The notes under the pieces are model-generated. The model did not search any database, was not told where the DNA came from, and saw nothing but the letters and a program-made list of their open reading frames with translations. Positions 37,356 through 39,448 of a DNA stretch of 64,000 nt are shown in pieces. Every line of letters starts with the position of its first letter. The stretch's first letter is position 1. This stretch comes from Candidatus Zixiibacteriota bacterium (GTDB lineage: Bacteria > Chloroflexota > Limnocylindria > QHBO01), in contig DASRYM010000039.1 of NCBI GenBank assembly GCA_035687145.1, positions 1,219 through 65,218 on the forward strand. Reading direction: 5' to 3'. The translations under genes were made by a program, and so were the position numbers.

Positions 37356-39448
37356 GGCCGGCCCGATACCTCCGCCAGGACGTCCCCGCGCTGCACCTGC
37401 TGGCCCTCCCGCACCGCGATGCGGCGCACCGTCCCGTGCAGCGGCGCTGCCACGGCGTGCTCCATCTTCATGGCCTCGATGACGATCACCGTCTCGTGCT
37501 CGTCCACCGAGGCACCCTCCTGGACGCGGACGGCGATGACCCGCCCGGGCATCGGCGCGGTCAGCACGGCCGAGCCGCCGTCCTGGGCCGCGGCGTGGCG
37601 CACCGCCTCCTCGACGCTGGGCGGCGGGGCCAGGTCGAACTCCAGCGACTGGCCCTCGACCGATACGAAGGCCGTGCCGCGTTCCACATCAACCGCGACC
37701 GGCCCATAGGCGCTCCACCCTCCTTCTGGCTGCGCGGAAATTGTTCCGATCATCCGAACACTCTGCGCGCGCTCGCCGACCCCCTGGGAGAGCTCGACCC
37801 GGCGCACCTGGTCGCCGTGGCGCACCCGGATCACGGGCGGCAGGTTCGGGCGCCAGCCGCCGCCCCACACCCCGGCGGGCAGTACCCCTGCCCCGCGCAG
37901 CGCCAGGGCCGCCGCGCGCCAGGCGGCCTCGTTCGGCTGCGGAGGATCGGGCAGCATGAGCGATTCGACGGTATCGGTCCGCACGTCGCCCTGCCGCATG
38001 GCCGGGTGGGCCAGCAGCCAGCGCAGGAAGCGCAGGTTGGTGCGCACCCCCAGCACCTCGGTGGCCTCCAGCGCCGTGCGGAGCCGGAGGAGGGCGTCGC
38101 GCCGGGTGGACCCGCGGGCGATGAGCTTGGCCAGCATCGGGTCGTAGCGGTCGGTGACCGTGTCGCCCTCCCGGATGCCGGCGTCGACCCGGACCCCATC
38201 GGGCCAGCGCAGATGCACGATGCGTCCCACGGCCGGCAAGAAGCCGGACTCGGGATCCTCGGCGTACAGCCGCGCCTCGATGGCGTGGCCGCGCCAGCGC
38301 ACGTCATCCTGCACGAGGTCCAGCGGCTCGCCGGCGGCGATGCGCAGCTGGTCGGCGACCAGATCCCGCCCGGTGACGGCCTCGGTCACCGGGTGCTCCA
38401 CCTGCAGGCGGGTGTTCATCTCCAGGAAGTGGAACGTCCCGTCATCGGCCAGCAGGAACTCGACGGTGCCGGCCCCCACGTAGCCCGCCGCCGCGGCGAC
38501 CCGCAGTGCGGCCTCGCCCATCCGCCGCCGAAGGTCGGCGGTCACCACCGGGCCGGGCGCCTCCTCCACGACTTTCTGGCGCCGCCGCTGGGCGGAGCAG
38601 TCGCGCTCCCCGAGGTGCACCCCCCGCCGATGGCGATCGAACAGGACCTGGACCTCCACGTGGCGCGGTCCATCCAGGAGCCGCTCCAGCACCAGGCGCT
38701 CGTCACCGAAGGCGCCGCGCGCCTCCCGGCGCGCGGCGGCCAGGGCCTCGGGCAAATCCTCCGCGCGCCGCACGGTGCGCATGCCCTTCCCGCCCCCGCC
38801 GCCGGCCGGCTTGACCAGCAGCGGGAAGCCGATGCGAGCGGCTTCCGCCAGCAGGCGCTGGTCCGACTGGTCCTCGCCGTCGTAGCCGGGGAGCACCGGC
38901 ACGTCGTGGGCCGCGGCCAGGCGACGCGCCGCCGCCTTGTCGCCCATGGCGGCGATGGCGCCGGGCGGCGGCCCGACCCAGACCAGGCCGGCGGCCTCCA
39001 CGGCCTCGGCGAAGCTCGGGTTCTCGGCCAGGAAGCCGTAGCCGGGGTGGACGGCATCCGCGCCCGCCGCCCGGGCGGCGGCCAGGATGGCATCGCCATC
39101 CAGGTAGCCGGGGACGCGGCGCACCTCGTCCACGTCGCGCGGCGGGACGTCGTCGGGTGCCTGGAGGGCGATGGAGCGGATGCCCAGGGCGCGTGCCGTG
39201 CGCCCCACGCGCGCCGCGATCTCTCCGCGGTTGGCGATGAGCAGGGTGTGGATGGGGCGGGCCGGCCACGGCCCGTGATCGGTCGCCTGCGCCGGCGCCA
39301 GCCCGGCCAGCCCGTCGCGCGGAATGCGCACTCGTCCCCCGACGCGCCGGGCCGGCAGGCGGCCCTGCGCGACCCAGCGCTGCACGGTCCGAACGGTCAC
39401 GCCGAGCCGGTCGGCAACCTGGCGCGGGGTCAGGTGCTCGTCGCCCAT
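37352..39448 (-). CDS. methylcrotonyl-CoA (acyl-CoA) carboxylase alpha subunit: biotin carboxylase plus BCCP, with an N-terminal excisionase/MerR-like HTH extension
   Basis: ATG at 39448. aa 1-45 LTPRQVADRLGVTVRTVQRWVAQGRLPARRVGGRVRI form an HTH_17-like domain. Then IHTLLIANRGEIA..., ATP-grasp and BC C-terminal domains, and a BCCP EAMKME biotin motif. No in-frame start between the HTH and BC parts. Contains an in-frame palindromic element insertion at 37741-37761. Confidence 0.8.
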   Translation of the reverse strand: MGDEHLTPRQVADRLGVTVRTVQRWVAQGRLPARRVGGRVRIPRDGLAGLAPAQATDHGPWPARPIHTLLIANRGEIAARVGRTARALGIRSIALQAPDDVPPRDVDEVRRVPGYLDGDAILAAARAAGADAVHPGYGFLAENPSFAEAVEAAGLVWVGPPPGAIAAMGDKAAARRLAAAHDVPVLPGYDGEDQSDQRLLAEAARIGFPLLVKPAGGGGGKGMRTVRRAEDLPEALAAARREARGAFGDERLVLERLLDGPRHVEVQVLFDRHRRGVHLGERDCSAQRRRQKVVEEAPGPVVTADLRRRMGEAALRVAAAAGYVGAGTVEFLLADDGTFHFLEMNTRLQVEHPVTEAVTGRDLVADQLRIAAGEPLDLVQDDVRWRGHAIEARLYAEDPESGFLPAVGRIVHLRWPDGVRVDAGIREGDTVTDRYDPMLAKLIARGSTRRDALLRLRTALEATEVLGVRTNLRFLRWLLAHPAMRQGDVRTDTVESLMLPDPPQPNEAAWRAAALALRGAGVLPAGVWGGGWRPNLPPVIRVRHGDQVRRVELSQGVGERAQSVRMIGTISAQPEGGWSAYGPVAVDVERGTAFVSVEGQSLEFDLAPPPSVEEAVRHAAAQDGGSAVLTAPMPGRVIAVRVQEGASVDEHETVIVIEAMKMEHAVAAPLHGTVRRIAVREGQQVQRGDVLAEVSGRP
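37741..37761. repeat. palindromic element copy (TTGTTCCGATCATCCGAACAC) inside the MCC alpha coding sequence, flanked by the 7-bp direct repeat CTGCGCG (37730-37736 and 37763-37769)
   Basis: The only intragenic copy. It sits in the BC-BCCP linker. Element plus one flank copy is 33 bp, i.e. in frame. Confidence 0.8.

What the first reader, a model, noticed from the sequence alone, without database searches (positions are those of the whole stretch)
37728..37770. In-frame insertion of the palindromic element into the BC-BCCP linker of MCC alpha, flanked by the 7-bp direct repeat CTGCGCG
The element copy at 37741-37761 lies inside the acyl-CoA carboxylase alpha ORF, where it encodes the peptide ...RAQSVRMIGTISAQPEGG... 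It sits between CTGCGCG at 37730-37736 and CTGCGCG at 37763-37769, which looks like a target-site duplication around a roughly 26-bp insert. Insert plus one repeat is 33 bp, so the reading frame is preserved. The location is the flexible linker before the biotinyl domain, where extra residues are tolerated. This is direct evidence that the palindrome family is or was mobile, and a rare example of a MITE-like element domesticated within a coding region.
Basis: seen in the sequence. Interest (0 to 1): 0.7.

Follow-up and report, generated by a model that had tools for sequence, protein, structure and literature searches.

The report
Regulator binding site inside carboxylase gene
The 21-bp palindrome inside the methylcrotonyl-CoA carboxylase alpha gene is most likely a binding site for a GntR-type regulator of amino-acid breakdown, kept in the coding sequence by selection on the DNA, and not a mobile element; the flanking 7-bp repeat is a chance match.

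Summary
CTGCGCG occurs at chance frequency (55 seen, 56 expected). A flanking repeat of 7 nt or more occurs at 4.8% of random positions. None of the other 7 palindrome copies has one. Both heptamers lie inside the lineage-specific insert, which is 17-20 residues, not 11.

The palindrome GTGTTCnGATsATCnGAACAC has 8 copies in the window (0 expected). Seven are intergenic, and five of these lie about 60-100 bp upstream of a start codon, next to tyrosine/leucine catabolic genes and a GntR-FCD regulator gene. In four relatives carrying that regulator, the dyad is conserved at the orthologous regulator promoter and at two further orthologous sites. A syntenic relative without the regulator gene at that spot has no copies. 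The variable inner positions do not covary, so this is not a hairpin.

The in-gene copy is under DNA-level constraint. Eight of 120 orthologues carry it, at two different positions. All five sequenced copies keep very rare codons (joint probability about 1e-9). In the window it sits in a predicted disordered loop of the folded BT domain.

Best reading: an intragenic operator, possibly a roadblock ahead of the HMG-CoA lyase gene. Binding and effect are untested.

The parts
37741..37761 (-). In-gene copy of the 21-bp dyad (coding strand GTGTTCGGATGATCGGAACAA, read as S-V-R-M-I-G-T-I). Proposed intragenic operator.
   Evidence: 38.2 bits; rare codons AGT, GTT, GGA, ACA, ATT; homologous in-gene copies in L001, L002, L085, L116.
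37724..37783 (-). 60-bp (20-residue) lineage-specific in-frame insert GVGERAQSVRMIGTISAQPE, residues 556-575 of the 698-aa protein. Predicted disordered loop between two beta-strands.
   Evidence: Alignment A1; coordinates; pLDDT below 50 for residues 556-581, between strands 547-552 and 584-587.
37730..37736 (+). CTGCGCG heptamer, copy 1 (encodes part of S-A-Q on the minus strand). Judged a chance repeat, not a target-site duplication.
   Evidence: lies inside the insert; not conserved in L001.
37763..37769 (+). CTGCGCG heptamer, copy 2 (encodes part of R-A-Q on the minus strand). Judged a chance repeat.
37352..39448 (-). Methylcrotonyl-CoA carboxylase alpha-like gene with domains HTH_17, biotin carboxylase, BT region and BCCP (698 aa; the open frame extends to 39583).
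   Evidence: Pfam; P0001 is 100% identical at 698 aa; best solved match is MCC alpha 3U9S.
36441..37355 (-). HMG-CoA lyase gene. It overlaps the MCC alpha stop codon, and its start is about 390 bp downstream of the in-gene dyad.
   Evidence: Pfam HMGL-like; the same gene order in L001, L002, L084, L116, L117.
28920..29723 (-). GntR-family regulator with FCD domain (FadR subfamily). Candidate binder of the dyad. First gene of a GntR-PNP-HPPD gene string.
   Evidence: Pfam; a dyad lies in its own upstream region here and in 4 of 4 close orthologous loci, with a degenerate version in a fifth.
29711..29731 (.). Dyad copy in the divergent GntR / inositol-monophosphatase intergenic region.
   Evidence: the only fully conserved block in alignment A2 of five genomes.
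25845..25865 (.). Dyad copy centred 59 bp upstream of the FAA-hydrolase-family gene (minus strand, start 25796).
   Evidence: orthologous copies upstream of the FAA hydrolase gene in L114 and L115.
25903..25923 (.). Dyad copy centred 63 bp upstream of the luciferase-like monooxygenase gene (plus strand, start 25976).
31812..31832 (.). Dyad copy directly after the stop codon of the last gene of the MCC alpha-HMGL-IUNH-ECF gene string, between convergent 3' ends.
   Evidence: an orthologous copy in L112 at 273-293.
46198..46218 (.). Dyad copy centred 60 bp upstream of the MCC beta (carboxyltransferase) gene start at 46148.
46242..46262 (.). Second dyad copy upstream of MCC beta, centred 104 bp from the start and 44 bp from the first copy.
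53938..53958 (.). Dyad copy upstream of an aldehyde dehydrogenase gene. The start is 53962 or, more likely, 54112.

Best explanation
The palindrome is the operator of a dimeric transcription factor, most probably the autoregulated GntR/FadR-type (FCD) regulator encoded at 28920-29723. In this Limnocylindria-like lineage the factor would control genes of ketogenic amino-acid breakdown. For tyrosine these are HPPD and an FAA-hydrolase-family enzyme. For leucine they are MCC beta and MCC alpha/HMG-CoA lyase. An aldehyde dehydrogenase is also included. The copy at 37741-37761 is one of these operators, placed inside the MCC alpha coding sequence. It is written into a 20-residue, predicted-disordered loop that only this lineage and its closest relative have, in the folded region between the biotin carboxylase and biotin carrier domains. 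Selection on the DNA keeps it there by forcing rare codons. The CTGCGCG pair is a coincidence. Shown here: the family exists; 7 of 8 copies are intergenic, and 5 of those lie about 60-100 bp upstream of a start codon; sites are conserved at orthologous positions in genomes that carry the regulator; the inner positions do not covary; the in-gene copy is under codon-level constraint; the motif recurs at a second in-gene position. Inferred: that the GntR protein is the binder; that it represses; and that the in-gene site acts as a transcriptional roadblock or controls an internal promoter, so that HMG-CoA lyase and the downstream genes are regulated separately. No promoter-proximal copy was found upstream of MCC alpha in any of the five genomes with an in-gene copy.
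For: The family is real and sharply defined. Positions: 59 and 63 bp upstream of the divergent FAA-hydrolase and luciferase-like genes, 60 and 104 bp upstream of MCC beta, 82 bp upstream of IMPase and within the GntR upstream region. Gene functions are coherent. Loci of GntR orthologues at 60-70% identity (L112-L115) all have the dyad between IMPase and GntR. There are further copies upstream of the FAA hydrolase gene (L114, L115) and after the ABC gene (L112), which are positions orthologous to window sites. In the five-genome alignment the dyad is the only fully conserved block. At 50% regulator identity a degenerate version remains at the same spot. The syntenic locus L084 has no GntR gene between IMPase and PNP and no dyad at 10 bits or more in 22 kb; L083 likewise has no dyad upstream of MCC beta. 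Arms 3-6/16-19 are invariant, while pairs 7/15 and 9/13 are complementary in only 9 and 10 of 19 sites. In-gene constraint: 8 of 120 orthologues carry the motif peptide, at two positions. All five sequenced copies keep GTT, GGA/AGA and ACA, whose usage in this genome is 1.7%, 6.1%/0.26% and 1.4%. The joint probability of the window's codon choices given the peptide is about 1.3e-9. Amino-acid differences among the copies (Q/R, M/I, T/I, G/R) fall at the degenerate operator positions. The insert is the only long stretch with pLDDT below 50 in a model with mean pLDDT 86.
Against: No binding or expression data exist. The regulator assignment rests on autoregulatory position and co-occurrence in a handful of short contigs; another factor encoded elsewhere could be the binder. 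Eight near-consensus copies in 64 kb is dense for one local regulator. One copy (31812) lies between convergent 3' ends, which is not a promoter position. No sigma-70-like promoter was detected near the in-gene site, although none was expected in this GC-rich stretch either. The metagenome scan for the motif returned only chance-like single hits, so the family could not be studied broadly. How the 60-bp insert arose is unknown. My specific prediction that the P0041 arginine would be encoded by CGA was wrong: it is AGA, which still preserves the arm.
Confidence: 0.72

Rival explanations
1. One reading: a MITE- or REP-like mobile palindromic element inserted in-frame into MCC alpha and generated a 7-bp target-site duplication (CTGCGCG). 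It was later tolerated or domesticated, in the manner of Rickettsia palindromic elements.
For: A lineage-specific in-frame insert containing the palindrome exists. The copies are near-identical and dense in the window. The syntenic relatives L083 and L084 lack the intergenic copies. In-frame palindromic element insertions are documented in Rickettsia (PMC10969869).
Against: The heptamer occurs at chance frequency, and a flanking repeat of 7 nt or more occurs at 4.8% of random positions. The other 7 copies have none. Both heptamers lie inside the 60-bp insert, so neither can be pre-existing target sequence. The downstream heptamer is absent in L001, which shares the insert. The shared unit is only about 21-24 nt. 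Copies are conserved at orthologous positions across genomes whose regulator is 60-70% identical. There is no covariation at the variable stem positions. The position-B in-gene copies involve no length change.
Confidence: 0.05
2. The palindrome functions as a nucleic-acid hairpin, for example an RNA stability or processing element, a terminator, or a DNA cruciform, rather than as a protein-binding dyad.
For: The sequence is palindromic. One copy sits right after the last gene of a gene string, between convergent genes (31812).
Against: The variable pairs 7/15 and 9/13 are complementary in only about half of 19 sites, with no compensatory pattern. A single unpaired central base is too small a loop, so the innermost pairs could not form. 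No T-run or terminator-like site was found. There is no Rfam match. Five of the eight copies lie about 60-100 bp upstream of a start codon.
Confidence: 0.05
3. The dyad is an operator, but its binder is the HTH_17 domain fused to the N-terminus of MCC alpha itself (a 'trigger enzyme'), not the GntR regulator.
For: MCC alpha in this clade carries a conserved N-terminal HTH_17 domain. Copies lie in its own gene and upstream of the gene for its partner subunit, MCC beta.
Against: The HTH_17 residues are nearly invariant across 35 homologues. Yet L083, L084, L117 and L003, which encode such fusions, have no strong dyad in or around the gene cluster. Presence of the dyad tracks the GntR gene instead.
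Confidence: 0.08
4. The in-gene copy has no regulatory function. The resemblance is maintained by selection on the peptide, or it is a recent neutral by-product of whatever event created the insert.
For: The effect on transcription is untested. Many intragenic transcription-factor sites in bacteria have no measurable effect (general knowledge).
Against: The peptide lies in a predicted disordered loop. It tolerates radical changes such as G/R and T/I exactly where the operator is degenerate, while the rare synonymous codons that spell the arms are kept in five genes that are 66-76% identical at the protein level. The motif was acquired at two different positions in separate clades.
Confidence: 0.1

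Closest known systems
Operators of GntR-family, FadR-subfamily (FCD domain) regulators, typically autoregulated repressors of catabolic operons
   Same: A dyad-symmetric site in the regulator's own divergent promoter and upstream of catabolic genes. The site is conserved together with the regulator across related genomes. The half-sites vary independently.
   Different: The regulator, its ligand and its regulon are uncharacterised, in an uncultured Chloroflexota lineage whose close homologues are labelled Limnocylindria. The 21-25 bp dyad with 10-bp half-sites is longer than the short GT-N-AC cores I recall for this family (from memory, not tested). Binding is not shown.
Intragenic operators that act as transcriptional roadblocks or auxiliary sites, e.g. 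the PurR box inside E. coli purB, CcpA/CodY sites in B. subtilis, and lacO2 inside lacZ
   Same: A repressor-type operator located inside a coding sequence, downstream of the start of the transcription unit (PMC10310618). The DNA requirement constrains codon choice.
   Different: Here the operator is carried by a lineage-specific insert that forms a disordered loop. It lies near the 3' end of the first gene rather than near the 5' end. The same motif was recruited at two positions in different clades. The roadblock mechanism is inferred, not shown. lacO2 is cited from my own knowledge.
Rickettsia palindromic elements and other MITEs or REPs that insert in-frame into genes
   Same: Palindromic DNA that adds residues in-frame to a metabolic enzyme at a structurally tolerated place (PMC10969869).
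   Different: RPEs are about 150 bp and belong to repeat families found in unrelated genes. Here the shared unit is about 21-24 nt, there is no TSD, the variable positions do not covary, copies are conserved at orthologous promoter positions, and presence tracks a regulator gene.

Membership tests
MITE / REP-like mobile palindromic element | Target-site duplications flanking the copies | tested here: not met
   Only the in-gene copy has a 7-nt flanking repeat; the other 7 copies have 3-4 nt, which is background. A repeat of 7 nt or more occurs at 4.8% of random positions. The heptamer occurs at chance frequency. Both heptamers lie inside the insert.
MITE / REP-like mobile palindromic element | A conserved element body beyond a short core (tens to hundreds of bp, with terminal inverted repeats) | tested here: not met
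   Similarity between copies ends after about 21-24 nt.
MITE / REP-like mobile palindromic element | Hairpin-forming palindrome whose pairing is maintained | tested here: not met
   Pairs 7/15 and 9/13 are complementary in 9/19 and 10/19 sites, with no compensatory pattern.
MITE / REP-like mobile palindromic element | Insertion sites not conserved between diverged genomes (presence/absence polymorphism at empty sites) | tested here: inconclusive
   Copies are conserved at three orthologous positions in L112-L115, which argues against mobility. But L083 and L084 lack all copies, and no close strains were available to look for empty sites.
MITE / REP-like mobile palindromic element | An associated transposase (for example RAYT for REPs) in the genome | not testable with these tools
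   Only 64 kb of the genome is available, and I did not annotate all of its genes.
Operator of an autoregulated GntR/FadR-type regulator | Dyad symmetry with independently varying half-sites | tested here: met
   10-1-10 dyad; arms at positions 3-6 and 16-19 are invariant in 19 sites, and the inner positions are degenerate.
Operator of an autoregulated GntR/FadR-type regulator | Site in the regulator's own promoter region, conserved across orthologues | tested here: met
   Present in the window and in 4 of 4 loci with 60-70% identical regulators; a degenerate version at 50% identity.
Operator of an autoregulated GntR/FadR-type regulator | Co-occurrence of regulator and sites (sites absent where the regulator is absent) | tested here: inconclusive
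   L084 lacks the GntR gene at the syntenic place and has no sites in 22 kb. That is a single informative locus, and whole genomes were not available.
Operator of an autoregulated GntR/FadR-type regulator | Promoter-proximal position upstream of functionally related genes | tested here: met
   Five of the 8 copies lie 59-104 bp upstream of a start codon, and a sixth lies upstream of the aldehyde dehydrogenase gene at an uncertain distance. The adjacent genes are HPPD-operon, FAA hydrolase, MCC beta and aldehyde dehydrogenase. Exceptions are the 31812 copy (3'/3') and the 37741 copy (in-gene).
Operator of an autoregulated GntR/FadR-type regulator | Direct, ligand-responsive binding of the protein to the site | not testable with these tools
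   Needs gel shift, DAP-seq or ChIP.
Intragenic roadblock operator | Operator sequence inside a coding region, maintained by selection on the DNA | tested here: met
   Rare codons are conserved in five orthologues; joint probability about 1.3e-9. The motif occurs at two in-gene positions.
Intragenic roadblock operator | Bound repressor reduces transcription downstream of the site | not testable with these tools
   Needs expression data. No promoter-like site was detected nearby.

The most novel reading that the evidence does not exclude
A regulatory DNA requirement has shaped the protein. An operator for a GntR-type regulator was recruited into the MCC alpha coding sequence at least twice, in different clades. 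Once this happened by rewriting existing codons just before a conserved beta-strand. Once it came with a 17-20-residue disordered loop whose main role may be to carry the operator. The operator would then allow separate control of HMG-CoA lyase and the downstream genes by roadblock or by an internal promoter. On this reading the extra loop in the enzyme exists for the sake of the DNA, not the protein.
Probability: 0.4. Interest if true: 0.6.

Novelty: new member of a known kind. Interest (0 to 1): 0.38.

Why it matters
The finding removes a false lead: there is no evidence here for a mobile palindromic element or a target-site duplication. In its place it gives a predicted regulator-operator pair and regulon (tyrosine and leucine catabolism) for Limnocylindria-like Chloroflexota, an uncultured group with essentially no characterised transcription factors. 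It also provides a clean example of overlapping codes. A binding site inside a gene forces codons that are used 1-6% of the time, and it sits in a protein loop that seems to exist only in lineages that carry the site. This is directly testable, because synonymous recoding can destroy the operator without changing the enzyme.

Tried and rejected
1. The genome-contig scan with the MCC alpha alignment picked generic biotin-carboxylase peptides, so it returned mostly Proteobacteria and Actinomycetota. Only L003 (Limnocylindrales) was a close relative, and it has no dyad. The scan was largely wasted.
2. The metagenome scan for TGTTCSGATSATCSGAACA gave 26 single hits in contigs with GC from 0.40 to 0.70 and random flanking bases. 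These are chance matches, so the family is not widespread in that collection.
3. The hypothesis that the HTH_17 domain of MCC alpha binds the dyad was rejected as the main reading. The domain is nearly invariant, but the dyad is absent from L083, L084, L117 and L003.
4. Local duplication or copy-paste origin of the insert: blastn-short of the insert plus 30 nt on each side found no similarity beyond the ~24-nt core, in the window or in relatives. The origin stays unknown.
5. A parS-like partition site was considered because of the outer TGTT...AACA bases. I dropped it (from memory of the parS consensus, not tested) because the inner sequence differs, the sites sit at promoter distances from catabolic genes, and they track the GntR gene.
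6. My prediction that the P0041 arginine is encoded by CGA was wrong. It is AGA, which still preserves the GAACAC arm.
7. The promoter/terminator scan around the in-gene site found nothing, but nothing was expected in shuffled sequence either, so it is uninformative.
8. P0015 DNA could not be fetched because the sample file was too large.
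Full report
OBSERVATION. TTGTTCCGATCATCCGAACAC lies at 37741-37761, and CTGCGCG lies at 37730-37736 and 37763-37769. The site is inside a minus-strand ORF (37352..39583) whose product contains ...ERAQSVRMIGTISAQPEGGW.... Pfam finds Biotin_carb_N, CPSase_L_D2, Biotin_carb_C and Biotin_lipoyl, plus an N-terminal HTH_17 domain. The database protein P0001 is 100% identical and 698 aa long, which puts the start at 39448. 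The best solved relative is P. aeruginosa methylcrotonyl-CoA carboxylase alpha, 3U9S. The window is 72% G+C.

THE HEPTAMER REPEAT IS A COINCIDENCE. CTGCGCG occurs 55 times in the window against 56.5 expected from shuffles. I measured the longest exact direct repeat between the 20-nt left and right flanks at about 9,100 positions across the window. A repeat of 7 nt or more occurs at 4.8% of them, so with 8 copies there is roughly a 1-in-3 chance of seeing at least one. The other seven palindrome copies have flanking repeats of only 3-4 nt, which is background. In addition, both heptamers lie inside the segment that is absent from orthologues (see below), so neither can be pre-existing target sequence. 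In L001, the only other gene that shares the insert, the downstream heptamer is not there.

THERE IS AN INDEL, BUT NOT THE PREDICTED ONE. I aligned 35 homologues (A1). The window protein and its closest relative P0002 (76% identity) carry 20 and 17 extra residues here (GVGERAQSVRMIGTISAQPE and TQAQSVQMTGTLSDSAHR). The other 33 lack them. In window coordinates the insert is 37724-37783. That is 51-60 bp, not the 33 bp expected from a 26-bp element plus one repeat. Similarity of the insert to other palindrome copies ends after about 24 nt, and the rest matches nothing in the window or in relatives. The position aligns to 3U9S residues ~520-545, between the biotin carboxylase and biotin carrier domains. 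From my knowledge of the MCC/PCC structures this region is the folded BT domain, not a free linker. An AlphaFold2 model built on A1 is confident overall (mean pLDDT 86.4, pTM 0.76). Its only long low-confidence stretch is residues 556-581, which covers the insert, between strands 547-552 and 584-587.

WHAT THE PALINDROME FAMILY IS. Eight copies occur in the window against 0 expected. On a PWM built from them, all eight score at least 33 bits and nothing scores between 14 and 33 bits. Seven copies are intergenic:
- Two lie between a divergent FAA-hydrolase-family gene and a luciferase-like monooxygenase gene, centred 59 and 63 bp from the respective starts.
- One lies between a GntR-FCD regulator gene and an inositol-monophosphatase gene.
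- Two lie 60 and 104 bp upstream of the MCC beta gene.
- One lies upstream of an aldehyde dehydrogenase gene.
- One lies directly after the last gene of the MCC alpha-HMGL-nucleoside hydrolase-ECF transporter gene string.
The GntR gene is followed by PNP and a 4-hydroxyphenylpyruvate-dioxygenase-like gene. The neighbouring functions therefore form a coherent set: tyrosine and leucine catabolism.

TEST OF THE OPERATOR MODEL IN RELATIVES. I searched for homologues of the GntR regulator and fetched the contigs of four of them at 60-70% identity (L112-L115). All four are syntenic with the window, and all four carry the dyad between IMPase and GntR. Further copies lie upstream of the FAA hydrolase gene (L114, L115) and after the ABC gene (L112), at positions orthologous to window sites. 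In a five-genome alignment of the GntR/IMPase intergenic region, which has 66% mean column identity, the dyad is the only fully conserved block. At 50% regulator identity (L117), a degenerate version (GAGTTCAGATCACTTGCACAG) remains at that spot and there are no other copies. Conversely, L084 is syntenic across 22 kb but has no GntR gene between IMPase and PNP, and it has no dyad at 10 bits or more. L083 has none either, and it carries a different two-copy repeat upstream of MCC beta. Across 19 sites the arms (positions 3-6 and 16-19) are invariant, whereas pairs 7/15 and 9/13 are complementary in only 9 and 10 sites. Half-sites that vary independently fit a protein-bound dyad and do not fit a hairpin-dependent element. 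Rfam has no match, and no terminator-like feature is present.

THE IN-GENE COPY IS UNDER DNA-LEVEL SELECTION. Eight of the 120 closest MCC alpha homologues contain the motif-encoded peptide. Two have it at position A, inside the insert (P0001, P0002). Six have it at position B, about 26 codons further on and immediately before the conserved xDVEGQS strand, with no length change relative to neighbours that lack it. DNA was available for five genes, and all contain the dyad:
- window: GTGTTCGGATGATCGGAACAA
- L001: GTGTTCAGATGACCGGAACAC
- L002: CTGTTCAGATGACCGGAACAC
- L085: CTGTTCAGATCACCGGAACAC
- L116: CTGTTCAGATCACCAGAACAC
. All five keep the codons GTT, GGA (or AGA) and ACA. In 9,080 codons from 22 window genes these are used for 1.7%, 6.1% (0.26%) and 1.4% of their amino acids. 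The joint probability of the window's codon choices given the peptide is about 1.3e-9. The amino-acid differences among the copies (Q/R, M/I, T/I, G/R) fall at the operator's degenerate positions. In a crude NJ tree without support values, the position-A carriers and the position-B carriers sit in different clades, and the B carriers are interleaved with non-carriers. That suggests at least two acquisitions plus turnover. I predicted that the P0041 arginine would be encoded by CGA. It is AGA, so the prediction was wrong in detail, but AGA still preserves the GAACAC arm and is the rarest arginine codon here.

MECHANISM. Shown: an operator-like dyad family that is tied to a GntR-FCD regulator by position and conservation, and an in-gene member maintained by selection on the DNA. 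Inferred: the GntR protein binds as a dimer and represses, and a catabolic intermediate releases it. The in-gene site lies about 390 bp upstream of the HMG-CoA lyase start in the window and L001, and 337-358 bp upstream in L002 and L085. No promoter-proximal dyad was found upstream of MCC alpha in any of the five genomes. The simplest reading is therefore a transcriptional roadblock, or control of an internal promoter, ahead of HMG-CoA lyase and the downstream genes. Repressors such as PurR, CcpA and CodY are documented to act as roadblocks when bound downstream of transcription start sites (PMC10310618). This step is untested.

RIVALS. The mobile-element model fails on TSDs, element length, covariation and orthologous conservation; I give it about 0.05. 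Rickettsia palindromic elements are the real precedent for in-frame palindromic insertions, but they are about 150 bp and behave differently (PMC10969869). A hairpin function is unlikely. The attractive idea that the HTH_17 domain fused to MCC alpha binds the dyad is not supported: the domain is nearly invariant in 35 homologues, yet several genomes that encode it lack the dyad. A non-functional in-gene copy is hard to reconcile with the codon evidence, but it cannot be excluded without expression data.

LIMITS. All relatives are short metagenomic contigs, and the regulator-site co-occurrence rests on few loci. The genome and metagenome scans added little. The origin of the 60-bp insert is unknown. 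The copy at 31812 lies between convergent 3' ends, is conserved in L112, and is not explained by a promoter-operator model.

VERDICT. The mobile-element and TSD interpretation is not supported, while the in-frame tolerated insert is. What is there is a new member of a known kind: the operator of a GntR/FadR-type regulator, with an unusual and well-supported copy inside a coding sequence. Interest is moderate (0.38).

Noticed in passing
window 39310-39448 (residues ~1-47 of the 698-aa MCC alpha); also L001, L002, L083-L085, L116, L117: MCC alpha carries a conserved N-terminal HTH_17 (excisionase/MerR-like) DNA-binding domain, followed by a disordered linker. The fusion is present in nearly all of the 120 closest homologues, and its recognition residues are almost invariant. 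This could be an enzyme that also binds DNA (a 'trigger enzyme'). Its DNA target is unknown and does not appear to be the palindrome.
   Followed up: partly
window 29745-29771 (minus strand); L112 2431-2457; L113 2329-2355: Three GTAA[CG] repeats at about 11-bp spacing lie next to the dyad in the GntR/IMPase intergenic region and are conserved across the five genomes. The two-repeat pattern occurs nowhere else in the window (2 overlapping matches against 0 expected). Possibly a promoter element or a second factor's binding site.
   Followed up: partly
L083 5530-5613: In a syntenic relative that lacks the palindrome, the MCC beta upstream region carries a different two-copy direct repeat (GCCAGCCACTGGYGGTAACTCCGACGAT, 51-bp spacing). 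It occupies the place where the window has two palindrome copies, which suggests a different regulator does the same job there.
   Followed up: no
window 31812-31832; L112 273-293: One dyad copy lies between the convergent 3' ends of the ECF-transporter ABC gene and a conserved hypothetical gene, and this placement is conserved in L112. It is not a promoter position. It could be a read-through or antisense roadblock, but this is unexplained.
   Followed up: partly
window 39628-42018 (+); L085 3134-5509: An M36 fungalysin-type metalloprotease gene with FTP and PA domains is inserted between the enoyl-CoA hydratase and MCC alpha genes in the window and in L085. It is absent at that place in L002, L083, L084 and L116, where the two genes are adjacent.
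   Followed up: no
window 25976-27004 (+): A luciferase-like monooxygenase gene with its own dyad copy sits between the FAA hydrolase and HPPD genes in the window. L114 and L115 have a small hypothetical gene or nothing at that place, so this looks like a lineage-specific gene recruited into the same regulon.
   Followed up: no
window 4416-4489 (+): A tRNA gene, the only Rfam match in the window at gathering threshold.
   Followed up: no
whole window: The source record for P0001 is labelled 'candidate division Zixibacteria'. However, the close homologues of MCC alpha and of the GntR regulator that carry a taxon label are labelled Chloroflexota, Limnocylindria or Limnocylindrales. The taxonomic label of this MAG may be wrong.
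   Followed up: partly
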